NCBI GenBank assembly: GCA_020854825.1
Contig: JAHKLY010000002.1
Coordinates: 31,487-95,486, forward strand
Origin: Candidatus Micrarchaeota archaeon
GTDB lineage: Archaea; Micrarchaeota; Micrarchaeia; Anstonellales; JAHKLY01
Direction: 5' to 3'
Length of the DNA: 64,000 nt
In this document: piece after piece, positions 6,901-61,663 of the stretch
Layout of the letters: every line of letters begins with the position of its first letter
How positions within the stretch are numbered: the first letter of the stretch is position 1
Made by a program: the position numbers and the translations under genes
Notes under the pieces: generated by a model
The model's input: the letters and a program-made list of their open reading frames with translations, nothing else
Databases searched by the model: none
What the model was told of the DNA's origin: nothing

Positions 6901-7670
6901 TGACTGATTATATACCAGAAAGAGAAGTTGAAGCAAATGAATCTGAAGAATTTGTGTTTGAAAATTCAGATGCAATAATAACTTTAGAATTAAATGAAAC
7001 AACAAATATTTCATTCTTTGTTGGTTTATTAAATGCAGGTCAATTAGAAGCATTAGGAGATTCTCCAACAGGATTAATTCCATTCAAAGGAATAAATGTA
7101 GAAATTAATGAAAATGAAATAAATGGTACTATAACAATTTGTATTACCTATACTGATGATGAATTAGATGATGCAGGAATAGAAGAAGATACATTAGTTA
7201 TGTATTATTTCAATGAAACATCTGATGAATGGGAAATAATAACTCTCCAAAGGCAAGGGTCAAATAGAGTATGTGCAGAAATACCACATTTCAGTATATA
7301 TGCATTATTTGGTGAAAAAACTGAAGAAGATGGAGGCTCACCTAGAGGAAGCAGTTATACTGGTGGCGGTGCAAGACCAGTAGGACAGAGTCCAATAACA
7401 ACTGAAGAAGAAGAGGAAGAATTACAAATAGATGAAGAAGAATTAGAAGAAGAAATAATAGTACCAGAAAAACCAAGTGAAGAAATACCAGATGAAAAAC
7501 CAATAGATACAACTAAACCATATGTACCTCCAACAATTGAAGAACAACAAGAAGAAAGTGATTTTACAGGTATATATATTGTTGCAGGAATAATTATAAT
7601 TGCAGGAATAATATACTGGTGGATGACAGCAGCAAAAGCAGGTAAAAAAGGATTAATGAGATTTAAATAA
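3945..7670 (+). CDS. large cell-surface protein with parallel beta-helix (NosD/pectate-lyase-like) repeats, acidic linker and C-terminal TM anchor
   Basis: Signal peptide. Repeated I(D/E)CNGY(T/S/R)I(T/I/Y)G and N-x-(I/V)-x-x-N repeat units typical of right-handed beta-helix proteins. Two long internal module duplications (WARTIYSSSDPNNSTYFAQVGDCSFEQGVCGQ / WTRTTYTFSDPVNTTYFDQLATCPFIQGLCGQ). E/P-rich spacer. C-terminal hydrophobic helix plus basic tail (..IIYWWMTAAKAGKKGLMRFK). Confidence 0.7.
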   Translation: MCMSNIIKNIFLVAFVLIVFSFGIVNAWVPQCSGNTYDFICGDIVDESCIMNGNLTSIGTCFTVYADNIVIDCDGYTITGSQTGYGVLNDGYDNVSINGCIIHDFTVGIQFYDSTIGLIYNNTVYDNNNGITLDNSSLINVSGNDVYGHDYGISLIDGSNNNTVADNSVNGNDFGIYLTISPGNNLTNNFVCRNSEVDVYDNEFPNNNWARTIYSSSDPNNSTYFAQVGDCSFEQGVCGQFINEDIVLTEDIECTEEGIGDSGIVVEADNITIDCNGYSIIGFMGSGIGVEVSGYDGITIINCNVSNFLTGIYVEDSIGTEVYDSIIYYNGMLGPDMTGIHFYNVNYSAIYNNLVHENDIGIVLEDSYENEVYENEVYDNLFQGIHLVNSEHNVIYDNHIYWNADIGLYILNSTNNLFENNTVCTNRLSDILFRGTSEGNEGDNTCNVLDDTEEDMNMEVTCSITCPYYGNCGDEIDGDIVLARDIEDCEDGLIVTTDNIVIDCNGYRIYGDGINGGIGILVDSLDNITIKNCTIKYFGVGIALFNSNSSTLMSNYMDSNGMGGETGIYMFNSNYTTVENNLVENDDGTGINLEFGFLNTLTNNTLLNNLYGIYLISSHNNTLTDNTANENVFGIDLGNSANNTLSGNTANKNIVVGVYLTGTSTNNYLIENTVNQNIGETYGILLSEGADENTLINNTIIGNTAGMNVGSLNNTLIDNFACANIVDIIDYTDGNDWTRTTYTFSDPVNTTYFDQLATCPFIQGLCGQTVTESVTLTEDIVCEEGDIFSPRPTALVIGANNLTIDCDGNYLIGYADYAGILSSGYNNTEIINCDISGFFYGIYFEDSNNSIVEDSNLHENMCEGMYIYSSSEDPYHAYVYDTVFEDNYQECVLTGLYLSSSTLFMWNSEFINNGEYGLYEEFRGIPDTVYWTIDDYAYCKDNGIYISTADGYITFDEGVLEIDNCTIEIYNRETETWAIWSIEGNMTDYIPEREVEANESEEFVFENSDAIITLELNETTNISFFVGLLNAGQLEALGDSPTGLIPFKGINVEINENEINGTITICITYTDDELDDAGIEEDTLVMYYFNETSDEWEIITLQRQGSNRVCAEIPHFSIYALFGEKTEEDGGSPRGSSYTGGGARPVGQSPITTEEEEEELQIDEEELEEEIIVPEKPSEEIPDEKPIDTTKPYVPPTIEEQQEESDFTGIYIVAGIIIIAGIIYWWMTAAKAGKKGLMRFK

Positions 7671-34160: not shown

Positions 34161-34781
34161 ATGGATCAGAAAAACAAAGCGAGTAAAGAAGAAGAATTAA
34201 AGAAAAAAGTTTATGAAGCAGCAATTGATACTGCAATCTTAATTGCTAAAAAAGGAGAAGGAGGATTAATAGTTATTGGAAAAACAAAAGATTATGAATG
34301 CCATTTTCCAAATTTTTTTGAAAATAAAAAATTTTATATAACTGATAATGGAATGACTGAAGTTTTATCTAAATTAGGTATTGTTGATGGCGCAATAGTT
34401 TTAGATCCAGATGGCAGAATTAAAGCATATGGTGCAAGAATTTTAAAACAAGAAACTGCTAAAGGGTTTGGAACAAGGCATTCTGCAGCAAAAGGAATTT
34501 CTAATTCTGGTTGTTTAGCAATTTTAGCATCAGAACAAGATAAAGTAGTTAGAATTTTTAAAGAAGGAAATAAAGTTATGGAAATAAACCCCCATACAAA
34601 AACAGTAGAAAAAAATGTATCCAAAATTGTTAAAATTTTAACAAAAACAGAAACAGCAGGATTAATTGCAGGGGCAGCAGCAGTTCCCATTATTGGGATA
34701 CCAGGAGTCATAGTTTTTGGAGGGAGTTATTTTGTTTCTAAAACTTTACTGGGAATGATTAGAGAGATAGACTTTAAATAA
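34161..34781 (+). CDS. diadenylate cyclase (DAC/DisA_N domain) with C-terminal hydrophobic segment
   Basis: DAC signature motifs DGAIVL and GTRHSAA (canonical DGA... and GTRHRAA). C-terminal GLIAGAAAVPIIGIPGVIVFGG membrane-like helix. Confidence 0.7.
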   Translation: MDQKNKASKEEELKKKVYEAAIDTAILIAKKGEGGLIVIGKTKDYECHFPNFFENKKFYITDNGMTEVLSKLGIVDGAIVLDPDGRIKAYGARILKQETAKGFGTRHSAAKGISNSGCLAILASEQDKVVRIFKEGNKVMEINPHTKTVEKNVSKIVKILTKTETAGLIAGAAAVPIIGIPGVIVFGGSYFVSKTLLGMIREIDFK

Positions 34782-37513: not shown

Positions 37514-38254
37514 CTAAAGGTGTATATTTCTTCCTTTTATATATGTTGCTTTTTGACATAAAAATCTTATTTTTTTGTTTTTGAAATTATTAAACTGCTC
37601 TTCAAGTGTACTTCCTATGCAGTCAAGCATTTTCCAAGGTTTTCTACATATTAAATCATTTGATATTTTTGTTTTGTATGAACTTGTTATTGCCCAATAG
37701 TCTTCTTTTTTCTCTCTGTTTTCTAGAATATATTTTATAGCACCAGATCCACAACTTAGTATGAAAAGGACTTTTATTCCGTTTATCTCATCAAGCATAT
37801 CAAATAAGGTCTCATATTCTAATTTTGTATCTTCTAATCTCAAATAAGGATTGATTTTTTTTCCATTTCCATGTGCTGCAATTATTATAAAGGTTATATC
37901 ATTTTCTTTAGATATTTTAGACGTATTTGTAATCTGAGTAATAAAATCTTCGTAAGTTAAACTAATATTCTCTCCAAAAGTTTTTTTTAACTCTGAATTT
38001 ACAAATTCTTTTTTATTATCTAAGAAGTTTAATACAGGTTTAACTATTAAATATGGGATTCTATCAAAAAAAGGCATTTTGTTAATTTCTGGTAGTATCT
38101 TTGGATTTGTTCTTCTAAAACCGATTACTCGGTTTGTTCCACAAAAAGGAATACTCTCTGTATTTGATTTAGGATTAGTTAAAATAGTTGAGATTTCTCT
38201 ATTTTGTGAGGATGTAATTAAAGTTATTGGATTGTCTTGTTGTATCATGTTCAT
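37514..38254 (-). CDS. caspase/clostripain-fold (CHF-class) cysteine peptidase-like protein
   Basis: His-Cys dyad context IIAAHGNG ... LFILSCGSGA, typical of caspase/legumain/gingipain-like peptidases. Confidence 0.4.
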   Translation of the reverse strand: MNMIQQDNPITLITSSQNREISTILTNPKSNTESIPFCGTNRVIGFRRTNPKILPEINKMPFFDRIPYLIVKPVLNFLDNKKEFVNSELKKTFGENISLTYEDFITQITNTSKISKENDITFIIIAAHGNGKKINPYLRLEDTKLEYETLFDMLDEINGIKVLFILSCGSGAIKYILENREKKEDYWAITSSYKTKISNDLICRKPWKMLDCIGSTLEEQFNNFKNKKIRFLCQKATYIKGRNIHL

Positions 38255-38392
38255 AATAAACTTGTGTATTTTTATGTTTATAAATGTTTTTATATCTTGT
38301 TTTAAATATATATTTTATATTTTTATAGCAGTTATTTTTTAGAATATATTAAAATAGCATAAGAATATAAATAATATCTTCTTATTTTTTTT

Positions 38393-39043
38393 ATGAAACA
38401 ATTTTCAGTTTATCTAGATGATTTACATGCAATTTATATATTAGATCCTAAGAATAAATTTAATTTTCAGTTTTTTCAAGATAAACCAAAGGAGATTTAT
38501 ATTCACCATACAGGAAATAATTCACATAGTTTAGAAGAAGCTTATAATATAGGAATTTCAAGATTTAATCAGCCTTCATATCATTTTATAATAGATAGAA
38601 AAGGGTCAATATATCAAACTCTTCCAATAAATGTAGCAGGTGCACATGTTAGACGCCATAATGAAAACTCATTTGGGATCGCACTTTTAGATTTAATTTC
38701 ACCTTCTTCTCCTACTCTAGCGATGAAATATTCATTGGGTGCATTAATTGATTTTCTTAAATCTAATTATCCCATAGAAAAAGTCTCTACTCATGTTGAA
38801 GCAACAGTTTCTGATGTTAATGAAATAATAGAACAGACGAGAATAAAACAGGATTTACCTTTATTAGATATAAATGAGATAGGTGAATTGACATTAAGTA
38901 ATGTCGAAAAGTATAAGGAAAATGTTAAAAAAGAAATTAAATATTCAGATGTAGATAAGATTGTAAAAGATTTGTTAAACCAAAGAGTAGAATATGTTAA
39001 AAATTGTCCAGGTCCATATTTCAAAGATCTTTTAGATTTATAA
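38393..39043 (+). CDS. N-acetylmuramoyl-L-alanine amidase (Amidase_2/PGRP) domain protein
   Basis: IYIHHTGN...YHFIIDRKGSIYQ...AGAHV...NSFGIALLD matches the Amidase_2 zinc-amidase core (HHT, IDR.G, AxH, S.GI). Confidence 0.6.
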   Translation: MKQFSVYLDDLHAIYILDPKNKFNFQFFQDKPKEIYIHHTGNNSHSLEEAYNIGISRFNQPSYHFIIDRKGSIYQTLPINVAGAHVRRHNENSFGIALLDLISPSSPTLAMKYSLGALIDFLKSNYPIEKVSTHVEATVSDVNEIIEQTRIKQDLPLLDINEIGELTLSNVEKYKENVKKEIKYSDVDKIVKDLLNQRVEYVKNCPGPYFKDLLDL

Positions 39044-39185: not shown

Positions 39186-39201
39186 ACACAATATATTGTG
39201 T
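39186..39201. promoter_or_regulatory. NrdR-box operator (perfect 16-bp palindrome ACACAATATATTGTGT)
   Basis: Matches the bacterial NrdR-box consensus acaCwAtATaTwGtgt. Lies 53 bp upstream of the nrdR start, inside the nrdR-nrdDG leader. Confidence 0.6.
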
Positions 39202-39710: not shown

Positions 39711-41906
39711 ATGGAAGTATCGCAAATAAGAAAAAGAGATGGGACAATCGTTTTGTTTAATAAACAAAAGATTATTGATGCAATTTGGAAAGCTATGAGA
39801 ACTGTTAATGAAGGAGATAGAGATAGGGCAGAAGAAGTAGCAGATCAAGTAGTTGAATTATTAAATCATAAATTTAGGAAAACAACTTCCCCTACAGTTG
39901 AAGAAATTCAAGACGTTATTGAAGAAGTGTTAATTTTAAATAAGTATGTTAAAACTTCAAAAGCATTTATTTTATATAGAAAACAGCATTCAGATGTTAG
40001 AAGAATGGCTAGTTTAATGAATACAGTAGAAACAATAGAAAAGTATATAGACCAAGCAGACTGGAGAGTAAAAGAAAATGCTAATATGACATATTCATTA
40101 CAAGGATTAAATAATCATATTGCAAGTTTAGTTGTTGCAGAATATTGGTTAGATAAATTATATCCTTCAAAAATTGCATTTGCACATAGAAATGCAGAGA
40201 TACATATACATGATTTAAGTACTTTAGGAGCTTATTGTGTAGGTTGGGATTTACAAGATGTATTGATGACAGGGTTCACAGGAGTGGAAGGAAAGATACA
40301 ATCAAAACCACCCAAACATTTAAGAGTAGTTTTAGGACAAATAGTCAATTATATTTATACATTGCAAGGTGAGACTGCAGGTGCGCAAGCATTTAGTAAT
40401 TTTGATACGCTTTTAGCTCCATTTGTAAGATATGATAGATTAGATTACCAGCAATTAAAACAAACTTTTCAGGAATTTTTATTTAACATGAATGTACCTA
40501 CGAGAGTTGGATTTCAAACACCATTTTCTAATATAACTATGGACCTAACTCCCCATCCTAGTTATAAAAATTTACCTGTAATCATTGGGGGTAAAATGAC
40601 TGACGATGTTTATGGTGATTTTCAAGAAGAAATGAATATGATTAATCAAGTTTTTGCTGAAGCAATGATAGAAGGAGATGCACATGGAAGAATTTTTACT
40701 TTTCCAATACCTACATATAATATTACAAAAGATTTTGATTGGGATTCACCAGAAGTTAAAAAAGTATTTGAAATGACTGCAAAATATGGAATTCCTTATT
40801 TTTCAAATTTTATAAATAGTGATATGAAACCAGAAGATGCCCGCAGTATGTGTTGCCGACTTAGGCTTGACAATAGGGAATTAAGAAAAAGAGGCGGAGG
40901 ATTATTTGGTGCAAATCCGCTAACTGGCAGTATAGGAGTAGTAACGATTAATCTTCCAAGAATTGGATATTTAGCAAGAACTGAAGAAGAATATTTTGAA
41001 AAATTAGATGAAGCAATGGATTTAGCATATACTAGTTTAGAAATAAAAAGAAAAGTATTAGAAAGTTTTACAGAACGTGGATTGTACCCATATTCTAAAT
41101 TTTATTTAAGAAAAATAAAAGAAACTCATAACCAATATTGGAAAAATCATTTTAGTACAATAGGATTAATTGGTATGAATGAGTCTATGATGAATATGTT
41201 TGGTTCTGGGTTATTAGATACTGAAAGTAGAAAATTTGCAATAAAAATTTTAGATTACATGAGAAAAAAATTAGAAGACTATCAGTTAGAGTCAGGCAAT
41301 ATATTTAATTTAGAAGCAACACCTGGAGAAGGAACAACACACAGACTCGCAAAAATTGATAAAACAAATTATCCAAGCATAATTGTAGCTAATGAAGAAT
41401 CCTATCAGGAAAGAGGAGCAGCACCTTACTATACAAATTCAACCCAATTACACGTTGCATCAACAATAGATTTGTTTGACGCGTTGGATATAGAAGATGA
41501 ATTGCAAACCAAGTATACTGGGGGGACCGTATTTCATACTTTTCTAGGAGAAAAAATTCAAGATTGGAAAATGACAAGAGAGTTAGTTAAAAAAATTGCA
41601 CATAATTTTAAACTCCCGTATTTTACATTGACTCCAACTTTCAGTGTTTGTCCCGTTCATGGGTATATTGCAGGAGAATATGAAGTATGCCCTAAATGTG
41701 ATGAAGAAATAGGGTATGCAGGCATGATAAGACAACTTAATCAAGGTAAAACTATAGATCAAGAAATTTTAGAAGCAACAAAGAAAAAAAGGAATTATTG
41801 TGAAGTATATAGTAGAGTGGTTGGATATATACGACCAGTTAAACAATGGAATGCAGGAAAGGTAGAGGAATATAAGGAAAGAAAAGTTTTTGACAAATGT
41901 TTTTAA
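39711..41906 (+). CDS. nrdD: anaerobic ribonucleoside-triphosphate reductase (class III) NrdD
   Basis: N-terminal ATP-cone. C-terminal Zn ribbon CPVHG...CPKCDE. Glycyl-radical motif SRVVGY near the C-terminus. About 730 aa. Confidence 0.9.
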   Translation: MEVSQIRKRDGTIVLFNKQKIIDAIWKAMRTVNEGDRDRAEEVADQVVELLNHKFRKTTSPTVEEIQDVIEEVLILNKYVKTSKAFILYRKQHSDVRRMASLMNTVETIEKYIDQADWRVKENANMTYSLQGLNNHIASLVVAEYWLDKLYPSKIAFAHRNAEIHIHDLSTLGAYCVGWDLQDVLMTGFTGVEGKIQSKPPKHLRVVLGQIVNYIYTLQGETAGAQAFSNFDTLLAPFVRYDRLDYQQLKQTFQEFLFNMNVPTRVGFQTPFSNITMDLTPHPSYKNLPVIIGGKMTDDVYGDFQEEMNMINQVFAEAMIEGDAHGRIFTFPIPTYNITKDFDWDSPEVKKVFEMTAKYGIPYFSNFINSDMKPEDARSMCCRLRLDNRELRKRGGGLFGANPLTGSIGVVTINLPRIGYLARTEEEYFEKLDEAMDLAYTSLEIKRKVLESFTERGLYPYSKFYLRKIKETHNQYWKNHFSTIGLIGMNESMMNMFGSGLLDTESRKFAIKILDYMRKKLEDYQLESGNIFNLEATPGEGTTHRLAKIDKTNYPSIIVANEESYQERGAAPYYTNSTQLHVASTIDLFDALDIEDELQTKYTGGTVFHTFLGEKIQDWKMTRELVKKIAHNFKLPYFTLTPTFSVCPVHGYIAGEYEVCPKCDEEIGYAGMIRQLNQGKTIDQEILEATKKKRNYCEVYSRVVGYIRPVKQWNAGKVEEYKERKVFDKCF

Positions 41907-54877: not shown

Positions 54878-55858
54878 TTAAATTAATTTTATTAATCCCC
54901 TGCCTATTTCTGCTAAATCCGCACCTAACATCATAGCAAATGAACGTATAAAGGTATAAGTAATAATTAATGCTATTACTGGTGAAATAAATATTCTCAA
55001 TAATATTGCAAAAAAACTACTTTCAAAAAACATTCCAAGTATTGTTTGATAATCAATACTCATTGCCATGTTCTTAATTAAACTTGCAGTTGCTATATTA
55101 TTACCAATACATAATTCTTCTAACATTTTATTATACTCATCTAGATTTTCAATTTCAAATGCTTCTAAGGATTCTGATGTACTACCTGATACAAAAAGAG
55201 TCATTAAAAAAGCAGAGGGAAGCACAATTGCAAAACCTAATCCCATAGCAATAAACATTGCTCCTACACCCCTAGTTGGAGGAAATGCTCTTAATATAAT
55301 ACCCATGGGTAATATTATTACTGCTAGATAATCTCCAAATTTCATTACCTCAACAAAAAAATACATCCACATTACAAATATCCCTAATACGTTTATTATC
55401 CAAGTGAATGTTCCGATAATTGTATTTGGGAGTGAGGCTGCACCAGGAATAAATGTTTTACTTAATAATCCTCCCATATCAGTTCCTATTATTGAAATTT
55501 CTTTACCAAATGCAAAAAAGAAACCTGCACTAAATACATTTCTATATGTTTTTTTAATTGGCCCCAATATTTTATAAACTTCAAAAACTGCGGCATTAAC
55601 AGGGTCTGAACCAAGTACTGGTGCAGTTGAAGTTGTATGTGTTAATTCATTTGAAACTTCTTGGGTTAAATAAAGCATACCTTGAATAAATCCTATAATT
55701 GCTAAAATTATAAATGCAGTTATTAAAATTTCCATATACTCACTTTTACACCATTTTTCTAATCCTTTTAAAGAAAATGCTCTCGCCATCATATAGAATA
55801 TAGTAATTCCCCCCAAGCAAAAAATTGCCAATATTAGAGTTAATATTATCCAATCCAT
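54878..55858 (-). CDS. paralog 6 of tandem polytopic membrane protein family (R-x-F-P-x-T-R motif)
   Basis: LPMGIILRAFPPTRGVGAMFIAMG motif. C-terminal MLGADLAEIGRGLIKLI. Its start overlaps the upstream gene's stop. Confidence 0.6.
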   Translation of the reverse strand: MDWIILTLILAIFCLGGITIFYMMARAFSLKGLEKWCKSEYMEILITAFIILAIIGFIQGMLYLTQEVSNELTHTTSTAPVLGSDPVNAAVFEVYKILGPIKKTYRNVFSAGFFFAFGKEISIIGTDMGGLLSKTFIPGAASLPNTIIGTFTWIINVLGIFVMWMYFFVEVMKFGDYLAVIILPMGIILRAFPPTRGVGAMFIAMGLGFAIVLPSAFLMTLFVSGSTSESLEAFEIENLDEYNKMLEELCIGNNIATASLIKNMAMSIDYQTILGMFFESSFFAILLRIFISPVIALIITYTFIRSFAMMLGADLAEIGRGLIKLI

Positions 55859-56979
55859 TATATCATCCGTGTTAGATTTGATAAATCTATTTGTTCACCA
55901 AAGAACCTTGAAAATTCTCTCATTGATGTTGCCAATATAGCAAAATTTAATAGGGGTAAAAATAAACTACCCAAAATATTAATTGCCAACATTTTCCAAG
56001 TTGCCATAGATAATGCACTAAACATTATTTTCATAGGTTCAATTATACCAATCTTAAAAGTTATTGGTGCACTTGTATGTATATTTCCATCAAACATATC
56101 TGCAGGACTATTAATATGTAGATTAATAAATTGATTTGCTTGCATTTGTTCTGCAACAAATTCAATAATTCCTTCCCACATTCCAAATACTCCAATACCT
56201 TGTAATGCGACACTATTAATAACTAAGAGCATAGGCCAAAATAAACCCAATGCAATTGTTAATCCAATAAGTGTTCCCCCAAACCTTCTTGTAGGTTCAA
56301 AGCATCTTAGTAATATGCCAATAGGCAGGTATATAGTAAACATTCCAGCATATACATAATTAAATAACATAAGTTGGGTTATAGATGTTACAAGCATTGT
56401 TATTATTCCTATTTGTGCTATTTCAAATACTCTATTTAAACTATTTAATCCCTTTCCAGGAGTAATGCCAATACCCAAACCTATAATATCCACTGAAAAT
56501 TTAAAATTTCCAATAGTTTCTCTTTGAATATTAAAGAAAAGTATGCTTGTTAAAGAAATAGTATTCATTCTCATAAGTGTGGTTAAATAATCTTTTGCTT
56601 CTACGACCATTGAGTCATCGCCAGCACCTAGAACATTACCAAAAATCATTTTAGGAGTTAAACCTCCAGAACATAAAATAAATTCTGAAAATCCAACAAT
56701 AACGAGCAATATTAATACAGTTGCACCAACTTGTAGCATTTCATATTTTGCCCATGTTTCACCTTTTTGTATTTGCATCCCCCTACATATAAGAAATATA
56801 ATTAATAGAATTAAAAGAGAAATCATTATTGCTATATAGCAAGTGACAGCCCATGAAGACATAAATGCATTCAAATCTCCCCCACAAACATCATCTGGAA
56901 ATATATCAAATAATGCAGAATGCGACAGATTAAATAGTAGAATTATGCATAGGATAAATAAGGGAATTTTTTTGATCAT
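55858..56979 (-). CDS. paralog 5 of tandem membrane protein family
   Basis: LPIGILLRCFEPTRRFGGTLIGLT. C-terminal FFGEQIDLSNLTRMI. Signal-peptide-like N-terminus. Confidence 0.6.
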   Translation of the reverse strand: MIKKIPLFILCIILLFNLSHSALFDIFPDDVCGGDLNAFMSSWAVTCYIAIMISLLILLIIFLICRGMQIQKGETWAKYEMLQVGATVLILLVIVGFSEFILCSGGLTPKMIFGNVLGAGDDSMVVEAKDYLTTLMRMNTISLTSILFFNIQRETIGNFKFSVDIIGLGIGITPGKGLNSLNRVFEIAQIGIITMLVTSITQLMLFNYVYAGMFTIYLPIGILLRCFEPTRRFGGTLIGLTIALGLFWPMLLVINSVALQGIGVFGMWEGIIEFVAEQMQANQFINLHINSPADMFDGNIHTSAPITFKIGIIEPMKIMFSALSMATWKMLAINILGSLFLPLLNFAILATSMREFSRFFGEQIDLSNLTRMI

Positions 56980-58181
56980 ATTAATTTCACCAATTCTGCT
57001 ACATTCATATCTGAACCTAAGAATTTTCCCATTTCTTGTATAAATGTAAATGTAATGAATATATTTAATGAAGGCAATATAAAACTACCTATCATTACTA
57101 GAAAAATACCTTCTTGGAGCATAATATAAAAGGCGTCCATATATAAATCACTAATTGCTCCAGCAACCATTGGATAAAGAAGCTGCCGATTTTTAAATAT
57201 AGTGGGAGTTCCACTTGTCATAAATTCTTTAAATGATTTATATAATGGATCTATTATGGCATTTGTAATTTCTCTACCTGGCCTATTAAGAGTAGGAGGG
57301 AAAGCATAGAAATGGTCTTGTGCATAATTTATCATTTCATAAGGATATACTCCAATATATGCAGACATTATTAAATTATTGAGATTAAGCATAATTGGAT
57401 AAACAAAATATAGGCCTAGTGCAAGGGCAATTAATCCCCCCCCTACAGAACGAGTAGTTGGAAAACTTCGCAATATTAATCCCAATGGTAAAAATAAAGC
57501 AAGCATTTTATCTGAAGTAAAACATAGAATAAACATATTACCAATCCAGCTTGTTATTGCAGGTAATAAAATAACCAAAGACCAATCAGTTAGTTTAGAC
57601 ACAATGCCAAACATTGAACCAAAATCATAATTAATTCCAATCATATTAAATGGAGTGAAATTAATTTCTATTGAGAATAACCCTTCTAAAAACATATTTA
57701 TAGTTAACATATGGTATCCTAAATGCATTAGTTCTGCAGCCATTGCTTCTGAATAATAATATGCAGTTTGTAATAAAGTGCACCCCGCATTTGGATCGCT
57801 TGGGTCAGAGTATCCACATAAAGTTACATCACAATCACCTACATTTTGACAAGAAGGGTTATTTAATTTTCCAATTTGATCTAAAGGCCCTATCAATGCA
57901 AGCAATAAAACAATAAGTATGAAGGATGCACTAACTTGCCAAATTTCATTTTTTCCCCATGCACTAATATTTGGAAGGTCCACTGCTTTTCCGATTAAAA
58001 ACACACAAACAGCAATCATAAATACAAGAAAAACTCCAGTAATAGATAGTACTAACCAGTTTAATGATGAATCTTGTAGTCCAATTGTTGGGCATGTTTG
58101 AGTCGGTTGTACTAAACTAAATCCTGTGATATTATTAATACAAAGGAAAAACATAATTACTAAAATTAATTTATTATTCAT
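56976..58181 (-). CDS. paralog 4 of tandem membrane protein family
   Basis: LPLGLILRSFPTTRSVGGGLIALA. C-terminal FLGSDMNVAELVKLI. Confidence 0.6.
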   Translation of the reverse strand: MNNKLILVIMFFLCINNITGFSLVQPTQTCPTIGLQDSSLNWLVLSITGVFLVFMIAVCVFLIGKAVDLPNISAWGKNEIWQVSASFILIVLLLALIGPLDQIGKLNNPSCQNVGDCDVTLCGYSDPSDPNAGCTLLQTAYYYSEAMAAELMHLGYHMLTINMFLEGLFSIEINFTPFNMIGINYDFGSMFGIVSKLTDWSLVILLPAITSWIGNMFILCFTSDKMLALFLPLGLILRSFPTTRSVGGGLIALALGLYFVYPIMLNLNNLIMSAYIGVYPYEMINYAQDHFYAFPPTLNRPGREITNAIIDPLYKSFKEFMTSGTPTIFKNRQLLYPMVAGAISDLYMDAFYIMLQEGIFLVMIGSFILPSLNIFITFTFIQEMGKFLGSDMNVAELVKLI

Positions 58182-58189
58182 TTTTTCAC

Positions 58190-59437
58190 CTATAAGAAAT
58201 GTGATAATCCTGCAATTGATGCATCTCCTCCAAAAAATGGAGCCATTGTTTTTATTGAAGCTAAAATAGCGAATAATACAAGTAAAGGTATAATAACAGT
58301 TAGCATAGCAATTTTACCAATCATATGTAAGATACCGTCTATTTCAAGAGCCATATTCTGTCCTTTAAGATGCATAAGAAGATATGCATCAGAAATCGAA
58401 AAAACTCTATTATAATATTCAGTAAATCCTTTACCTATATTTTTAAGCGATTCAAGAGGATGAAGAAAATCAAAATGTGCATTTTCAAAATCAAATTGAG
58501 GTAACAAACTTGCACTTCCTTCAGTCATAAAATCAGCATAAGGCAGTAGTTTTTGTCCAGTCAAAGAGGTCTGTAATCCTATAAAGTTTCCTGATTCAAA
58601 CATTGCCCTATGGCCAATAATATATGGTAATGGAGCAATATAATACAGGCTAAGAGATGTAGCTATTAAAAACCCCCCCAATTTTCTAGTAAATTCAAAA
58701 CTTCTAAATACAAATCCACTAATTAATAAAACTGGAAATAAAACTTGTGCTACTATATCTACTGCATTTTTTTGAATTATATTAATAATTAAAGAATGTG
58801 ATAAAAGTTTGAATGCTTTAGCATACATTCCAAATTCTACTGAATATCCTACTCCCGGCATAATTTTTAGTATTTCTGGAAGCAACAAGAAAGGAGGTTT
58901 AGGCGCAATTACGTATCCTTGTAATAAAAATTTAAAAGATGAAAAAAAGCTTAATTGTTGGTATAATAATAACATTTGTGTCATTGTTTCTGATATCAAC
59001 CATTCTGTTCTATCTAAAAATGATAGTGTTACACATATATGAGGAGCGTAATTTCTGCCTACTACTTCAAATCCTTTTTTTGTATATAAACACTTTCCAT
59101 CTGGATTTAATGCAACACCTGCCTCTTGCATAGTCAAAGTATTGGATAATATTAAATCAATATTTGGAGTTGTATCTATTGAAGAATATGGATCTAATTG
59201 CACAATTCCTTTGGGGATGATTTCGTTATCTATAATTGGTATTGCAACAACGACAATCAAAAAGAAAAAGAATAGATTTAGAATGACTTGCCCATATTCA
59301 GTTTTTGCCTTTGCTCTTAAAGATTCGTCTTGTAATATAAATGAAAATAAATGTATTAGAACATAAATTCCAAGCATAATTAAAGATAGTACAAATGTAA
59401 GCAAAAGCCCCTGTGTTTGTAATTCTATAGGTATCAT
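58190..59437 (-). CDS. paralog 3 of tandem membrane protein family
   Basis: FPVLLISGFVFRSFEFTRKLGGFLIATS. C-terminal FFGGDASIAGLSHFL. Confidence 0.6.
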   Translation of the reverse strand: MIPIELQTQGLLLTFVLSLIMLGIYVLIHLFSFILQDESLRAKAKTEYGQVILNLFFFFLIVVVAIPIIDNEIIPKGIVQLDPYSSIDTTPNIDLILSNTLTMQEAGVALNPDGKCLYTKKGFEVVGRNYAPHICVTLSFLDRTEWLISETMTQMLLLYQQLSFFSSFKFLLQGYVIAPKPPFLLLPEILKIMPGVGYSVEFGMYAKAFKLLSHSLIINIIQKNAVDIVAQVLFPVLLISGFVFRSFEFTRKLGGFLIATSLSLYYIAPLPYIIGHRAMFESGNFIGLQTSLTGQKLLPYADFMTEGSASLLPQFDFENAHFDFLHPLESLKNIGKGFTEYYNRVFSISDAYLLMHLKGQNMALEIDGILHMIGKIAMLTVIIPLLVLFAILASIKTMAPFFGGDASIAGLSHFL

Positions 59438-60390
59438 TAATCAAACCTCTGTATTAAGAATTTTTGAAAACTATTTATAAAAGATACTGTTATTGCCATA
59501 CTTATTGTAGGTAAAAATAATCCCTGCATTAAAACAACTGACAGCATTATAAATCCATTAAATATTTCATATAGTTTTGGCTCTATTACTTGAAATGTTT
59601 TTCCCCAAGCACCTGTAAATGCATCAAATGTTGTGCTATTTGGTATTTCATCAAATATTATTTGAGTTATTGAAATCATGAAGTTATCTTGTATATCTGA
59701 AACAATATTTTCAACTATTGCTGCGTGGATTACATATGAAAATGGAAAAACAATATAAAATCCAATTGCAACTGCGATTAAAAATGAACCTGAATTTCTT
59801 GTAGTTGGAAATATTCTTAAGAAAATTCCGATTGGCAATACAAAAGGAATCATTATTGCTTTTATAATTGATAATGCAAATTGTTGTATTGCTAAACTTG
59901 CATAAAATGGACTCATTAAAGCAAATACTTTATCTAATGCTTTTGTTAAAGTACTTAAATCAAACGGAGGAAAGGTAACGTCTGCTCTTATTGGAATTCC
60001 TATCAAGGCTACTCCAGGTATGTCATTTAATCCTATCTTTATATTTATTTTAGTTAATATATCCATTCCCACCCTCCCATAGAATACAGATTTCATAGTT
60101 CCAAATGTATCAACAAGTAGGTTTTCTAAATATTCTAAAGATATAGTAAATGGGTCATTTCCAATTAATTGAGTGCTTATTTCAAATAATCCTTGTATTC
60201 CAAATATAATAAATAACAAAATAGCAATAGATACCAATATCTGATATAATTCCATTCTTGCAAAAATTTCAAATTCTTTATTATTTAATAATTTAGAAAG
60301 CAAATAAGAAATTGCAGTTAATGCTACCATAATCATTAAAGGTACGATAGAAAGTTGCAATGCAGTTATAAATGCTTGATCAAATGCCAT
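59437..60390 (-). CDS. paralog 2 of tandem membrane protein family
   Basis: LPIGIFLRIFPTTRNSGSFLIAVA. Stop/start overlap with neighbours. Confidence 0.6.
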   Translation of the reverse strand: MAFDQAFITALQLSIVPLMIMVALTAISYLLSKLLNNKEFEIFARMELYQILVSIAILLFIIFGIQGLFEISTQLIGNDPFTISLEYLENLLVDTFGTMKSVFYGRVGMDILTKINIKIGLNDIPGVALIGIPIRADVTFPPFDLSTLTKALDKVFALMSPFYASLAIQQFALSIIKAIMIPFVLPIGIFLRIFPTTRNSGSFLIAVAIGFYIVFPFSYVIHAAIVENIVSDIQDNFMISITQIIFDEIPNSTTFDAFTGAWGKTFQVIEPKLYEIFNGFIMLSVVLMQGLFLPTISMAITVSFINSFQKFLIQRFD

Positions 60391-60391
60391 A

Positions 60392-61663
60392 TTATCCCAA
60401 CTTTAATTTTTCAATTCCAAATATTTTTGTTTCTCCTCCTAAAATTCCAGAGATATTTGCAAATAAGGTTAAACAAATAATAACATCCATAAAAAAACAA
60501 ATAGCAATAAAAATAAACTTCTGTAAAACTTGATTTGCTAAAGCGGCTGTGTAATGAATTGGTTCAGCTGCAAATTCACTTAAATTAATGCCTAATGCAG
60601 CACCAGCAAGTGCAGTTGTTAATTTGGATAATTTACTTAAGGTTCCAAATAATAAATTGTTTATTGTATTGCTAATTACTTCTCCTGCTCTTATCACAGA
60701 TCTTCCAATATATGCAAAAAAGTTTTTTATTTTATCACCTAAATTTGAATTCCAATTAGTTTCTTCGTTTATATCATTTATATTATCTGTTAATGAACCA
60801 AATTCATCAATTAATATATCTCCCCCTTCAGGATAATGTTCATCCATTTTTTCCTGCATTTTTGTTTCATCTTCAAGTTTTTGTTCTAATCTTTCTTCTA
60901 ATAATGCAACAGAAATTGGATCCTCATTATCATATGATAAACCACCTAAGAACATATTGACATATATATATTGATTAAATAAAATAGTCATTGGAAAAAT
61001 GAAATAAAAAGTAATTGCTAATGCAATTAATGTAGAACCTAATCTTCTTGTTATGGGTAATGCGCGTAATATTATCCCCAATGGGAAAAATATTGTGAAT
61101 GAAGTTATTTTAATAAAATCCAATATGGAATCCATTACAGATACTAAAAAGTTTGTCATAATAACAGTTTTAGTTATATCTCCAATCATATCTGCAACTA
61201 TATTCAATCCTGCTAATGGTTGCATGCTTACACTCACTACAAAACCAACAAGACCCCCCATAGGTATGGGAACTCCAAATGTTATTCCATATTTAGAATA
61301 ACCAGATAAAATTGCACTAGTTCGTACTCCTCTTTCCGCAATATTTTGTAGATTTAAATCCAGTACTTTTAGAAACACTTTTCCTTGTGTAAAATATACG
61401 GGATCGTTTATATCTAAAGGTCCTGAATAACCTATTAATGCATAACATACTAATAATACCACATAATGAAGTAAAAACATCCCAAGAAAAACTATTAATA
61501 CAGAATAAATCAATTCTTTAAATTCTTTTTGTGCCCAGCCTTTTAATTGAGGAAATCCTCCCAAAGTAGATATTAAATATGCAAATAAAGCACCGCCTAG
61601 ACTTATCATTAATCCTATAAATACTAGTACATATGCTTGTGAACTAAATACCATATAATTCAT
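60392..61663 (-). CDS. paralog 1 (first gene) of tandem membrane protein family, with acidic insertion
   Basis: FPLGIILRALPITRRLGSTLIALA motif. E/D-rich insertion (EERLEQKLEDETKMQEKMDEH). C-terminal FGIEKLKLG. Confidence 0.6.
   Translation of the reverse strand: MNYMVFSSQAYVLVFIGLMISLGGALFAYLISTLGGFPQLKGWAQKEFKELIYSVLIVFLGMFLLHYVVLLVCYALIGYSGPLDINDPVYFTQGKVFLKVLDLNLQNIAERGVRTSAILSGYSKYGITFGVPIPMGGLVGFVVSVSMQPLAGLNIVADMIGDITKTVIMTNFLVSVMDSILDFIKITSFTIFFPLGIILRALPITRRLGSTLIALAITFYFIFPMTILFNQYIYVNMFLGGLSYDNEDPISVALLEERLEQKLEDETKMQEKMDEHYPEGGDILIDEFGSLTDNINDINEETNWNSNLGDKIKNFFAYIGRSVIRAGEVISNTINNLLFGTLSKLSKLTTALAGAALGINLSEFAAEPIHYTAALANQVLQKFIFIAICFFMDVIICLTLFANISGILGGETKIFGIEKLKLG

What the first reader, a model, noticed from the sequence alone, without database searches (positions are those of the whole stretch)
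38393..39043. Peptidoglycan amidase (Amidase_2/PGRP-like) encoded by an archaeon
The Amidase_2 zinc-amidase signature (IYIHHTGN, IDRKGSIYQ, AGAHV, SFGIALL) indicates N-acetylmuramoyl-L-alanine amidase activity. Archaea lack murein, so this is a candidate tool against bacterial cell walls, either predation or host interaction with a bacterial partner, or a phage-derived remnant. No signal peptide is evident, so export, if any, would be non-classical.
Basis: partly seen in the sequence, partly recalled or inferred. Interest (0 to 1): 0.6.

Follow-up and report, generated by a model that had tools for sequence, protein, structure and literature searches.

The report
Archaeal amidase with split zinc site
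A small-genome (DPANN, Micrarchaeota) archaeon carries a conserved relative of the zinc enzymes that cut bacterial cell walls; it has no export signal and an unusual 63-residue insert inside its metal site, so it is a real enzyme gene but nothing here shows it to be a secreted anti-bacterial weapon or a phage leftover.

Summary
The ORF at 38393-39043 (+, 216 aa) is real. It matches Pfam Amidase_2 (E 1e-14, 55.4 bits against a cutoff of 26). The host is archaeal (PolD, aCPSF1, proteasome, exosome, PCNA), and NCBI labels the identical protein Candidatus Micrarchaeota. All T7-lysozyme/PGRP catalytic residues are present: His38, Tyr63, His134, Lys203 and Cys205. The Cys lies 71 residues after the second His instead of the usual 8, because a 63-residue helical insert (residues 139-201) splits the domain. 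Removing the insert in silico restores a full-length Pfam match. An AlphaFold model has pLDDT 93.3, and its best structural matches are phage endolysin amidases, T7 lysozyme and PGRPs.

The insert defines a rare family. Every member found in an informative context sits among archaeal genes, and none has a signal-peptide-like N-terminus. The window gene lies in conserved housekeeping synteny (SecF-SecD-x-amidase-NrdR-NrdD-NrdG), has host-like composition, and has dN/dS of about 0.14. It is therefore native, not phage-derived.

In sister lineages the amidase is followed by a signal-less class A beta-lactamase-fold gene.

The window clade has replaced the DAP-binding Arg with Leu.

Best reading: an intracellular amidase acting on soluble muramyl-peptide-like substrates. 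This rests on inference only.

It is a new variant of a known kind, of moderate interest.

The parts
38393..39043 (+). Complete gene: 216-aa insert-bearing Amidase_2 protein (end includes the stop codon)
   Evidence: ORF listing; Pfam Amidase_2 1e-14; identical protein on 12 contigs; AF2 model pLDDT 93.3, pTM 0.89
38393..38443 (+). N-terminal beta-hairpin (residues 1-17, FSVYL..LHAIY), outside the Pfam domain; not a signal peptide
   Evidence: AF2 strands E2-8 and E11-17, pLDDT 93-94; invariant across the Micrarchaeota-type clade; low hydropathy
38480..38806 (+). Amidase_2 core, first part (residues 30-138), aligning to T7 lysozyme residues 7-127
   Evidence: Pfam match residues 30-134 = profile positions 3-119 of 131; hhalign probability 98.7% to T7 lysozyme; Foldseek probability 1.00 to 6srt, 7f5i, 1aro, 7nsx and 2y28
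38504..38506 (+). His38 codon, zinc ligand 1 (= T7 lysozyme His17, PGRP-LB His42)
   Evidence: Invariant in 26/26 family sequences; aligned to the T7 His by hhalign and BLASTP
38579..38584 (+). Tyr63-His64 codons; Tyr63 = catalytic Tyr (T7 Tyr46, PGRP-LB Tyr78)
   Evidence: Alignments; Tyr in 12/15 of the window clade and 24/25 other insert-type members; role of the Tyr from PMC8124813
38621..38623 (+). Leu77 codon, at the position of the DAP-recognising Arg (PGRP-LB Arg92, T7 Arg60)
   Evidence: Leu in 15/15 of the window clade; Arg in 24/25 other insert-type and 104/130 canonical Amidase_2 hits. Role of Arg92 from PMC8124813. The equivalence rests on the Tyr+14 spacing and the hhalign alignment
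38792..38794 (+). His134 codon, zinc ligand 2 (= T7 His122, PGRP-LB His152)
   Evidence: At least 90% conserved in A2; aligned to the T7 His
38807..38995 (+). Family-specific helical insert (residues 139-201) between zinc ligands 2 and 3, in the loop equivalent to the PGRP-LB beta6-alpha3 loop
   Evidence: AF2 helices H134-148, H160-163, H168-184 and H189-199, pLDDT 93-97. The segment from His134 to the C-terminus (residues 134-216, which contains the insert) has no significant Pfam match on its own. Excising the insert raises the Pfam score from 55.4 to 63.9 bits and completes the profile to 131/131. His-to-Cys spacing is 71 here against 8 in 72/138 of the other Amidase_2 hits
38999..39013 (+). 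K203-N-C205-P-G207 motif: displaced end of the Amidase_2 domain; Cys205 = zinc ligand 3 (T7 Cys130), Lys203 = T7 Lys128
   Evidence: C205 and P206 invariant and G207 at least 90% in 26 sequences. With the insert removed, BLASTP aligns STHVEATVKNCP to T7 RAHHEVAPKACP
38255..38392 (.). 138-bp AT-rich spacer shared with the divergent 246-aa caspase/C13-like gene (37514-38254, minus strand); presumed promoter region, no Shine-Dalgarno-like sequence seen
   Evidence: Sequence read directly; no archaeal promoter tool was available, so this is inference only

Best explanation
The gene encodes a native, vertically inherited zinc amidase of the Amidase_2 (T7 lysozyme/PGRP) fold. It belongs to a rare subfamily, found here only next to archaeal genes, in which a helical subdomain of about 50-87 residues is inserted between the second zinc-binding His and the zinc-binding Cys. 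Shown: the fold, the complete catalytic residue set (His38, Tyr63, His134, Lys203, Cys205), the insert, the archaeal housekeeping context, purifying selection, and the absence of any hydrophobic N-terminal signal in the whole subfamily. Inferred: the protein stays inside the cell and hydrolyses the amide bond between a lactyl/muramyl-type acid and a peptide in small soluble substrates. The most likely substrates are peptidoglycan fragments taken up from neighbouring bacteria, as with bacterial AmpD or the putatively intracellular isoform of insect PGRP-LB. It would not lyse bacterial walls from outside. Also inferred: the insert sits at the rim of the catalytic cleft, next to the loop that carries Lys203 and Cys205, and probably restricts or re-specifies substrate access. 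The clade-wide Arg-to-Leu change at the DAP-recognition position suggests the preferred stem peptide is not DAP-type.
For: Family and fold: Pfam Amidase_2 at 55.4 bits. AF2 model pLDDT 93.3. Foldseek probability 1.00 to amidase endolysins, T7 lysozyme, PGRP-LB and AmpD, with TM-score up to 0.69 normalised to T7 lysozyme.

Catalytic set: H38, H64, C205 and P206 are invariant and H134 is at least 90% conserved across 26 sequences of 21-75% identity. hhalign and BLASTP place H38, Y63, H134, K203 and C205 on T7 His17, Tyr46, His122, Lys128 and Cys130. These ligands are conserved only in catalytic PGRPs (PMC8124813; PMC4573324). Excising the insert completes the Pfam profile.

Native gene: synteny DAC-SecF-SecD-(variable)-amidase-NrdR-NrdD-NrdG holds in the window, L001/L022, L011 and L021, and partly in L020, L023 and L002/L003. 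Gene GC is 27.0% and GC3 13.4%, against 11-17% GC3 in housekeeping genes. dN/dS against the 75% orthologue is 0.158/1.134.

Intracellular location: no TM or signal-like segment. None of 24 insert-type representatives has a hydrophobic N-terminus, and the N-terminus is a structured hairpin.

Peptidoglycan-like substrate: the groove residues H85 and N90, shared with canonical amidases, are retained. In 7 of 7 distinct loci from the other insert-type lineages (L004/5, L006, L007/8, L009, L016, L017), the amidase is immediately followed by a class A beta-lactamase/DD-peptidase-fold gene. That gene also lacks a signal peptide.

Precedents for intracellular Amidase_2 enzymes: AmpD (PMC5036320) and the putatively intracellular PGRP-LB isoform (PMC5365318).
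Against: No activity, metal content or localisation was measured. Hydropathy cannot exclude non-classical export.

The window holds no muropeptide permease, NagZ, MurQ or NagA/B-type gene. It also holds no homologue of the beta-lactamase-fold partner. The operon evidence therefore comes only from relatives at 21-27% identity.

The window clade has Leu at the position of the peptidoglycan (DAP)-binding Arg in 15/15 members. This could mean a non-peptidoglycan substrate.

Three clade members (P0008, P0009, P0174) have Thr in place of the catalytic Tyr, and one (P0004) has Pro in place of His134. Catalysis may therefore not be essential everywhere in the clade.

The core is closer in sequence to phage/Firmicute endolysins than to AmpD, and it uses Cys rather than AmpD's Asp as the third ligand.
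Confidence: 0.45

Rival explanations
1. Exported or injected antibacterial lysin. The amidase leaves the cell by a non-classical route (vesicles, a contact-dependent apparatus or a cell-cell bridge) and cuts the wall of a bacterial host or competitor. This would parallel what is proposed for DPANN lytic transglycosylases and shown for haloarchaeal peptidoglycan hydrolases.
For: The catalytic set is intact, and the closest sequence and structure matches are true lytic endolysins. Archaeal peptidoglycan hydrolases that kill bacteria exist; only 32% of them carry recognised signal peptides, and signal-less ones are somewhat enriched in genomes with contractile injection systems (PMC12352652). Peptidoglycan-degrading genes have been taken as signs of predation in Woesearchaeota (PMC9723730). 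The gene stays next to SecF-SecD across the clade.
Against: There is no signal peptide, TM anchor or wall-binding domain here or in any of 24 insert-type representatives. No secretion, holin or injection genes are adjacent. The operon partners in sister lineages also lack signal peptides. The DAP-binding Arg is lost. The SecDF adjacency is interrupted by variable genes and can be explained by inherited synteny.
Confidence: 0.2
2. Repurposed enzyme with a non-peptidoglycan role. The Amidase_2 scaffold now cleaves an endogenous archaeal amide (an envelope glycan-peptide, metabolite or cofactor intermediate), or acts mainly through binding via the new helical subdomain, as T7 lysozyme does when it binds T7 RNA polymerase.
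For: The host lacks murein. The gene is a long-resident gene under purifying selection in housekeeping context. A large, confidently modelled insert sits next to the active site. The Arg-to-Leu change at the peptidoglycan-recognition position is fixed in the clade. The catalytic Tyr is replaced by Thr in one sub-branch, which nevertheless keeps the gene.
Against: The zinc ligands and groove residues H85 and N90 are kept as in peptidoglycan amidases. Sister lineages pair the gene with a DD-peptidase/beta-lactamase-fold protein, a fold tied to D-Ala-containing peptides. From general knowledge of the family, no non-peptidoglycan substrate is known for Amidase_2.
Confidence: 0.25
3. Non-catalytic PGRP-like binding protein that senses or sequesters peptidoglycan fragments without cleaving them.
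For: NCBI's name for the identical protein is 'peptidoglycan recognition protein family protein'. Some clade members carry substitutions at Tyr63 or His134.
Against: The window protein keeps His38, Tyr63, His134 and Cys205. His, His and Cys are conserved only in catalytic PGRPs (PMC8124813).
Confidence: 0.07
4. Remnant of a virus or prophage endolysin, or a recent transfer from bacteria.
For: The best PHROG and PDB matches are phage amidases.
Against: There are no phage genes around it. The chromosomal position is conserved across species of 37-75% identity. Composition is identical to the host, and dN/dS is about 0.14. The ORF is intact and the same length as its orthologues. No viral structure matches the full length, and TM-score normalised to the query is at most 0.49.
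Confidence: 0.03

Closest known systems
T7 lysozyme and catalytic PGRPs such as Drosophila PGRP-LB (Amidase_2, PF01510)
   Same: Same fold (Foldseek probability 1.00; 1aro TM 0.69 normalised to the target, rmsd 2.2 A over 126 columns). Same catalytic residues: His, Tyr, His, Lys and Cys.
   Different: His-to-Cys spacing is 71 residues instead of 8, because of a three-to-four-helix insert in the beta6-alpha3 loop. There is an extra N-terminal beta-hairpin. Leu replaces the DAP-binding Arg (PGRP-LB Arg92). The host is an archaeon.
Clostridial phage/host amidase endolysins LysCS/LysC (6srt, 6ssc) and the C. perfringens-specific amidase (7f5i)
   Same: These are the closest solved sequences (E 1.3e-7 to 4.9e-7, 26-27% identity over the core).
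   Different: Those enzymes function in host-cell lysis and have the canonical short His-to-Cys loop. The archaeal protein has no lysis-cassette context and carries the insert.
AmpD, the cytoplasmic 1,6-anhydro-MurNAc-L-Ala amidase of peptidoglycan recycling
   Same: Amidase_2 fold (Foldseek 2y28 E 4.6e-6). Cytoplasmic, signal-less, and acts on soluble muropeptides (PMC5036320). This is the proposed functional analogue.
   Different: From general knowledge, AmpD uses Asp as its third ligand, whereas this protein uses Cys. There is no AmpD NCBIfam hit. No AmpG or NagZ neighbours were found. Sequence similarity to AmpD is lower than to endolysins.
Archaeal modular peptidoglycan hydrolases (Woldo/Danwoldo of Halogranum salarium; Strock et al. 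2025, PMC12352652)
   Same: Peptidoglycan-hydrolase homologues encoded by archaea that themselves lack murein.
   Different: Those proteins combine a catalytic domain with peptidoglycan-binding domains, and the characterised examples carry Tat signal peptides and are secreted. This protein has a single catalytic domain, no binding domain and no signal, so that survey's modular definition would not capture it.
Lytic murein transglycosylases reported in Woesearchaeota and other DPANN MAGs (PMC9723730, PMC10634959)
   Same: Peptidoglycan-related enzymes in DPANN archaea, interpreted as signs of interaction with bacteria.
   Different: A different enzyme class (GH23 glycosidase rather than zinc amidase). 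Those are described as large proteins that bind and degrade peptidoglycan strands, whereas this is a small signal-less protein.

Membership tests
Amidase_2 / PGRP superfamily (PF01510) | Significant match to the family profile above the curated threshold | tested here: met
   55.4 bits against a cutoff of 26, E 1e-14; 63.9 bits and full profile coverage (3-131 of 131) after in-silico removal of residues 139-201
Amidase_2 / PGRP superfamily (PF01510) | T7-lysozyme-like alpha/beta fold | tested here: met
   AF2 pLDDT 93.3, pTM 0.89. Foldseek probability 1.00 to 6srt, 7f5i, 6su5, 1aro, 1lba, 7nsx and 2y28. TM-score normalised to the query is only 0.45-0.49 because about 80 residues (hairpin plus insert) have no counterpart
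Catalytic (zinc amidase) subset of Amidase_2 | Zinc ligands His, His and Cys/Asp present | tested here: met
   His38 and Cys205 are invariant and His134 is at least 90% conserved in 26 sequences. They align to T7 His17, His122 and Cys130
Catalytic (zinc amidase) subset of Amidase_2 | The three ligands converge on one metal site in three dimensions | not testable with these tools
The only support is high pLDDT (89-97) around the ligands
Catalytic (zinc amidase) subset of Amidase_2 | Catalytic Tyr (T7 Tyr46, PGRP-LB Tyr78) and Lys/Thr two residues before the Cys | tested here: met
   Tyr63 and Lys203 are present. Y78F abolishes PGRP-LB activity (PMC8124813)
Catalytic (zinc amidase) subset of Amidase_2 | Canonical short loop (8-10 residues) between the second His and the Cys | tested here: not met
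   Spacing is 71 residues here. It is 8 in 72, and 9 or 10 in a further 20, of the 138 hits not classed as insert-type, and 50-87 in the insert-type family. This is a typical feature rather than a strictly defining one
Catalytic (zinc amidase) subset of Amidase_2 | [quoted passage not shown] | not testable with these tools
   Needs a biochemical assay
DAP-type-specific PGRP/amidase | Arg at the meso-DAP-binding position (PGRP-LB Arg92) | tested here: not met
   Leu77 in 15/15 of the window clade; Arg in 24/25 other insert-type and 104/130 canonical hits; role of Arg92 from PMC8124813
Phage endolysin / prophage remnant | Located in a viral or lysis-cassette context, or bearing marks of recent transfer | tested here: not met
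   Neighbours are SecD, a C13-like peptidase and NrdR-NrdD-NrdG. The neighbour has no PHROG hit. Synteny is conserved. Composition is host-like
AmpD-type recycling amidase | Cytoplasmic location (no signal peptide) | tested here: met
   Hydropathy only
AmpD-type recycling amidase | His-His-Asp triad, AmpD-level sequence similarity, and linkage to AmpG/NagZ-type recycling genes | tested here: not met
   The third ligand is Cys. There is no AmpD NCBIfam hit. No recycling genes lie in the 64-kb window. The rest of the genome was not examined
Archaeal modular secreted peptidoglycan hydrolases (Strock et al. 2025) | Catalytic domain plus peptidoglycan-binding domain, often with a Sec or Tat signal | tested here: not met
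   Only the Amidase_2 domain is detected. The C-terminal segment that contains the insert (residues 134-216) has no significant family match. No signal-like segment was found

The most novel reading that the evidence does not exclude
DPANN archaea possess an intracellular pathway for consuming bacterial cell-wall fragments. An insert-bearing Amidase_2 strips the stem peptide from imported muropeptides. In Woesearchaeota-like lineages a co-operonic, signal-less class A beta-lactamase-fold peptidase and two uncharacterised proteins of about 500-580 aa process the products. The window's Micrarchaeota clade keeps a re-specified (Arg-to-Leu) stand-alone version. If so, murein-less, biosynthetically poor archaea would feed on peptidoglycan turnover products of their bacterial neighbours.
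Probability: 0.2. Interest if true: 0.75.

Novelty: new variant of a known kind. Interest (0 to 1): 0.45.

Why it matters
Peptidoglycan hydrolase homologues in archaea are currently read as weapons against bacteria, and the published survey covers only modular enzymes, about a third of which carry secretion signals. This gene represents a different class. It is small, lacks any export signal, is vertically inherited, and was found here only in archaeal genomic contexts. Its catalytic residues are complete but are split by a helical subdomain. In sister lineages it is fixed next to a signal-less beta-lactamase-fold gene. If it is an intracellular muropeptide amidase, some DPANN archaea would use bacterial wall fragments as nutrients, which bears on the unresolved question of who their partners are. 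If it acts on something else, it would be the first Amidase_2 enzyme with a non-murein substrate. Either outcome can be tested with one recombinant protein. For the window itself, the practical message is that the annotation 'amidase/PGRP family' is right, and the 'phage remnant or secreted weapon' gloss is not supported.

Tried and rejected
(1) The first AlphaFold run used the 8-sequence alignment A1 and gave pLDDT 49.7. It was unusable and was replaced by the run on the 26-sequence alignment A2.

(3) The search for related loci with A2 failed because the alignment has no conserved stretch. With A1 it found only one locus among the GTDB species representatives and 8 loci in JGI metagenomes. 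The family is rare.

(4) A search for tRNAs or Rfam families in the window to help place the organism found nothing.

(5) tblastn of the beta-lactamase-fold partner and the two unknown partner proteins against the window gave no hit below E = 0.06. The operon seen in sister lineages is absent from these 64 kb.

(6) I asked whether the variable gene between SecD and the amidase is a conserved partner. It is not. It is C13-like in the window and L021, an unrelated 371-aa protein in L001, a 244-aa membrane protein in L011, an SNF transporter in L002/L003, and absent in L020.

(7) A profile of the 519-581-aa partner protein found nothing in the PDB, Pfam or NCBIfam. Its resemblance, recalled from memory, to PafA/Dop/GCS2-type carboxylate-amine ligases remains an untested lead.

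(8) A neighbour-joining tree of the core domain, rooted at the midpoint, was uninformative. Rooted on a canonical multi-domain hit, all 40 insert-type sequences fall in one 47-tip clade. The other seven tips are three canonical-spacing sequences, one sequence lacking the CPG motif, two truncated fragments and one CPE variant. This is low resolution and only suggests monophyly.

(9) The 87-aa hydrophobic ORF at 38079-38342 was considered as a possible holin. It overlaps the C13-like gene on the opposite strand and no gene caller called it in L012-L015, so it was rejected as probably spurious.

(10) The NCBIfam hits of the C-terminus to NtdP and PRK13662 (E 0.026-0.044, far below their cutoffs) were dismissed as chance.
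Full report
**1.

The ORF listing gives one ORF at exactly 38393..39043 on the + strand, starting with ATG and encoding 216 aa. No upstream extension is possible, because the tool reports the longest ORF after the preceding stop.

The similarity to known amidases is well above chance.
- Pfam-A gives a single hit, PF01510 Amidase_2, E = 1e-14 and 55.4 bits against a gathering cutoff of 26. It covers residues 30-134, which correspond to profile positions 3-119 of 131.
- PHROGs returns only lysis amidase and endolysin families, the best being phrog_822 at 1.3e-15.
- phmmer against PDB sequences finds amidase endolysins 7f5i (1.3e-7) and 6srt/6ssc (about 4e-7), then XlyA, PGRPs and T7 lysozyme.

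The identical protein is called on 12 contigs from several independent assemblies, with the same neighbours in the four places shown. This is not an assembly artefact.

**2. The host is an archaeon and the gene is native to it**

The window encodes many archaeal markers:
- PolD small and large subunits, aCPSF1, a CDC48 ATPase, archaeal-type SecD, SecF, ThrRS and ArgRS;
- proteasome alpha and beta subunits, aIF2-beta, exosome subunits Rrp4, Rrp41, Rrp42 and Csl4, SBDS, PCNA, Cdc6/Orc1 and RIO kinases.

NCBI's name for the identical protein is 'peptidoglycan recognition protein family protein [Candidatus Micrarchaeota archaeon]'. The only hit among GTDB species representatives is another Micrarchaeota MAG.

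The gene's composition matches the host. Its GC is 27.0% and its GC3 13.4%, against window GC of 28.1% and housekeeping GC3 of 11-17%.

Its chromosomal position is conserved. The order DAC-SecF-SecD-(one variable gene or none)-amidase-NrdR-NrdD-NrdG appears in the window, in L001/L022 (75% identity), in L021 (70%) and in L011 (37%). It appears partly in L020, L023 and L002/L003 (38-39%).

Against the 75% orthologue, dN = 0.158 and dS = 1.134, a ratio of about 0.14; dS is close to saturation.

No neighbour is phage-like. A prophage remnant or a recent transfer is therefore rejected. An ancient acquisition from bacteria or phage remains likely, given that the nearest characterised relatives are endolysins.

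**3. Anatomy: a complete catalytic set, split by an insert**

The Pfam match stops at His134 and lacks the last 12 profile positions, which normally carry the third zinc ligand.

An alignment of the eight close homologues (A1) shows a conserved C-terminal C-P-G motif. So does an alignment of 26 sequences at 21-75% identity that includes distant full-length relatives from the exhaustive profile search (A2).
- Invariant across A2: His38, His64, Gly83, Leu118, Cys205 and Pro206.
- At least 90% conserved: His134, Gly207, Asn90, Gly71 and Ile96.

hhalign of A2 against T7 lysozyme gives probability 98.7%. It places His38 on His17, Tyr63 on Tyr46 and His134 on His122.

I then deleted residues 139-201 in silico.
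- The Pfam score rose from 55.4 to 63.9 bits and the match extended to profile positions 3-131 of 131.
- BLASTP aligned STHVEATVKNCP to T7 RAHHEVAPKACP. This puts Lys203 on Lys128 and Cys205 on Cys130.

The literature identifies these residues as the active set. His, His and Cys bind zinc and the Tyr is catalytically essential. The His, His and Cys positions are conserved only in catalytic PGRPs (PMC4573324; PMC8124813).

The new feature is the spacing between the second His and the Cys. It is 71 residues here. It is 8 residues in 72, and 9 or 10 in a further 20, of the 138 hits not classed as insert-type in the exhaustive search. It is 50-87 residues in at least 24 insert-type cluster representatives.

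**4. Structure**

The shallow alignment A1 gave an unusable model (pLDDT 49.7). The 26-sequence alignment A2 gave pLDDT 93.3 and pTM 0.89. The model contains:
- an N-terminal beta-hairpin (residues 2-17);
- the Amidase_2 alpha/beta core;
- a helix that begins at His134 (134-148), followed by helices 160-163, 168-184 and 189-199;
- the loop that carries Lys203 and Cys205.

The insert is modelled with pLDDT 93-97.

Foldseek against the PDB returns only Amidase_2 proteins at probability 1.00. These include LysCS/LysC, the C. perfringens-specific amidase endolysin 7f5i, the Thermus phage endolysins, PGRPs, T7 lysozyme (TM 0.69 normalised to the target, rmsd 2.2 A) and AmpD. TM-score normalised to the query is only 0.45-0.49, because the hairpin and insert have no counterpart.

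No predicted viral structure matches the full length either.

I could not read the coordinates, so the zinc-site geometry and the position of the insert relative to the groove remain unmeasured. By sequence position, the insert lies in the loop equivalent to the PGRP-LB beta6-alpha3 loop, which shifts when Cys160 is mutated (PMC8124813). It should therefore border the catalytic cleft. This is an inference.

**5. The family**

The exhaustive profile search of 1.84 billion representatives found 1223 Amidase_2 proteins at E <= 1e-3, but only 5 at E <= 1e-30. The close family is rare.

Forty sequences in hand carry the insert architecture. In a neighbour-joining tree of the core domain they all fall within one 47-tip clade. 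The other seven tips are three canonical-spacing sequences, one that lacks the CPG motif, two truncated fragments and one CPE variant. The tree has low resolution.

Every insert-type locus with informative context is archaeal.
- r-proteins L21e, L7Ae, S28e, L24e, L44e and S27e, and the factors EF1-beta, aIF5B, eIF2-alpha, Nop10, GINS, Cdc6, TrmB and SepF appear nearby.
- One member is labelled Candidatus Woesearchaeota.
- L016 and L018 are uninformative.

None of the 24 insert-type representatives examined has a hydrophobic N-terminus. The maximum 12-residue Kyte-Doolittle mean is at most 1.77.

**6. Context in sister lineages**

Outside the Micrarchaeota-type clade, 7 of 7 distinct loci share a gene order (L004/5, L006, L007/8, L009, L016, L017).
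- First, the amidase.
- Second, a 338-422-aa class A beta-lactamase/DD-peptidase-fold protein. Pfam Beta-lactamase2 scores 1e-39 to 5e-43, with weak Peptidase_S11; PDB 4ewf scores 1e-20.
- Third, in six of the seven loci, a 519-581-aa protein with no detectable family. In L017 its homologue lies three genes further downstream.
- Fourth, in L004/5, L006 and L007, a protein of about 510 aa with FG-GAP-like repeats in L006 and L007.

None of these partners has an N-terminal signal-like segment.

The window contains no homologue of them. This evidence therefore bears on the family rather than directly on the window gene.

**7. A clade-specific change in the substrate site**

Residue 77 lies 14 positions after the catalytic Tyr. 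In PGRP-LB, Arg92 is likewise 14 after Tyr78, and T7 has an Arg at the equivalent spot. PGRP-LB Arg92 hydrogen-bonds the meso-DAP residue of TCT, and Lys-type PGRPs have Thr or Val there (PMC8124813).

| Group | Residue at position 77 |
|---|---|
| Window clade | Leu in 15/15 |
| Other insert-type proteins | Arg in 24/25 |
| Canonical Amidase_2 hits | Arg in 104/130 |

His85 and Asn90, shared with canonical amidases, are retained.

Two findings are cautionary. The P0008/P0009/P0174 sub-branch has Thr in place of the catalytic Tyr. P0004 has Pro in place of His134.

**8. Interpretation**

Shown:
- a native archaeal gene under purifying selection;
- an Amidase_2 fold with the full catalytic residue set;
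- a large family-specific insert between two metal ligands;
- no recognisable export signal or wall-binding module.

Inferred, at confidence 0.45: the protein works inside the cell on small muramyl-peptide-like substrates. This would resemble AmpD in bacterial wall recycling (PMC5036320) or the putatively intracellular PGRP-LB isoform (PMC5365318). The insert and the Arg-to-Leu change would alter which substrates fit.

Rivals:
- an exported or injected antibacterial lysin (0.20). This is plausible because archaeal peptidoglycan hydrolases that kill bacteria exist and most lack recognised signal peptides (PMC12352652). It has no positive support here;
- a repurposed enzyme or binding protein with a non-murein role (0.25);
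- a non-catalytic PGRP-like binder (0.07);
- a phage remnant (0.03).

**9. Comparison with what is known, and novelty**

Peptidoglycan-related genes in DPANN have been reported, mainly GH23 lytic transglycosylases in Woesearchaeota (PMC9723730; PMC10634959).

Archaeal peptidoglycan hydrolases have been surveyed and shown to kill bacteria. That survey required a catalytic domain plus a binding domain (PMC12352652), so this protein would not qualify.

My full-text searches found no description of an Amidase_2 with a displaced Cys ligand. Nor did they find a DPANN amidase/beta-lactamase-fold gene pair. The library covers open-access papers only, so absence is weak evidence.

I rate this a new variant of a known kind. 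The annotation 'amidase/PGRP family' already exists in NCBI. What is new is the split-site architecture, the family-wide lack of export signals, the restriction to archaeal contexts in the loci examined, and the conserved partner gene in sister lineages.

Interest is moderate (0.45). A specialist would not be surprised by a murein-hydrolase homologue in a DPANN genome. The intracellular, insert-bearing family does, however, offer a cheap, testable route to learning what these archaea do with bacterial wall material.

Noticed in passing
L004:6001-11062, L006:6001-11191, L007:6001-11203, L009:6001-9391, L016:2240-5175, L017:1067-7416: Conserved gene cluster, in archaeal context in most of these loci. 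It runs: insert-bearing Amidase_2, then a class A beta-lactamase/DD-peptidase-fold protein, then (in six of the seven loci) a 519-581-aa protein with invariant G-x-E-x-E, Y-x-D, P-E and G-x-S-x-H-x-N motifs and no Pfam, NCBIfam or PDB match. A roughly 510-aa protein, with FG-GAP-like repeats in L006 and L007, follows in L004/5, L006 and L007. None has a signal-like N-terminus. The motif pattern of the 519-581-aa protein recalls PafA/Dop/GCS2-type carboxylate-amine ligases; this is from memory and untested.
   Followed up: partly
window 39186-39201: A perfect 16-bp palindrome, ACACAATATATTGTGT, lies 53 bp upstream of nrdR. It occurs once in the window at 0 mismatches. From memory it looks like a bacterial-type NrdR box, here in front of an nrdR-nrdD-nrdG operon in an archaeon.
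   Followed up: partly
window 54878-61663 (minus strand): Six consecutive paralogous polytopic membrane proteins (317-423 aa; pairwise 20-42% identity, E 1e-4 to 1e-12). None has a Pfam hit. This is a tandemly expanded family of unknown function.
   Followed up: partly
window 37514-38254 (minus strand): The divergent neighbour of the amidase is a 246-aa protein with a sub-threshold Peptidase_C13 hit (E 0.0027). It has caspase-fold-like AAHGNG and LSCGSG motifs and no signal peptide. A 48% homologue sits at the same place in L021, but the slot holds unrelated genes in other relatives.
   Followed up: partly
window 1406-2509 (+): A 367-aa [FeFe]-hydrogenase-like protein (Fe_hyd_lg_C 1e-74 plus the small-subunit domain) in a Micrarchaeota genome. 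It is unusually short for this enzyme class.
   Followed up: no
L001:10122-14564 versus window 39711-41906: The NrdD orthologue in the 75%-related genome is 1480 aa and carries an intein with a LAGLIDADG homing endonuclease. The window's NrdD (about 731 aa) lacks it.
   Followed up: no
window 34161-34781 (+): A DAC (diadenylate cyclase) domain protein is conserved immediately upstream of SecF-SecD in the window, L001, L011 and L003. This indicates c-di-AMP signalling in these archaea.
   Followed up: no
window 3945-7670 (+): A 1241-aa protein with parallel beta-helix repeats (NosD-like; TIGR03804 1.7e-49). It may be a surface or adhesin protein.
   Followed up: no
P0008, P0009, P0174 (L002:4478-5215, L003:5965-6702) and P0004: Within the window's clade, one sub-branch has Thr in place of the catalytic Tyr63 and Gly or Trp in place of His39. 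One orthologue (P0004) has Pro in place of zinc ligand His134. These are possible losses of catalysis in genes that are otherwise conserved.
   Followed up: partly
P0014 (171 aa): A database protein fuses the N-terminus of ribosomal protein S10 to the C-terminal half of the P0008 amidase. In L002/L003 these two genes are convergent neighbours, so P0014 is probably a chimeric assembly or gene-calling artefact.
   Followed up: no
window 38079-38342 (+): An 87-aa, very hydrophobic ORF lies just upstream of the amidase and overlaps the C13-like gene on the opposite strand. No gene caller called it in identical contigs. It is probably spurious, as AT-rich antisense sequence often is.
   Followed up: partly
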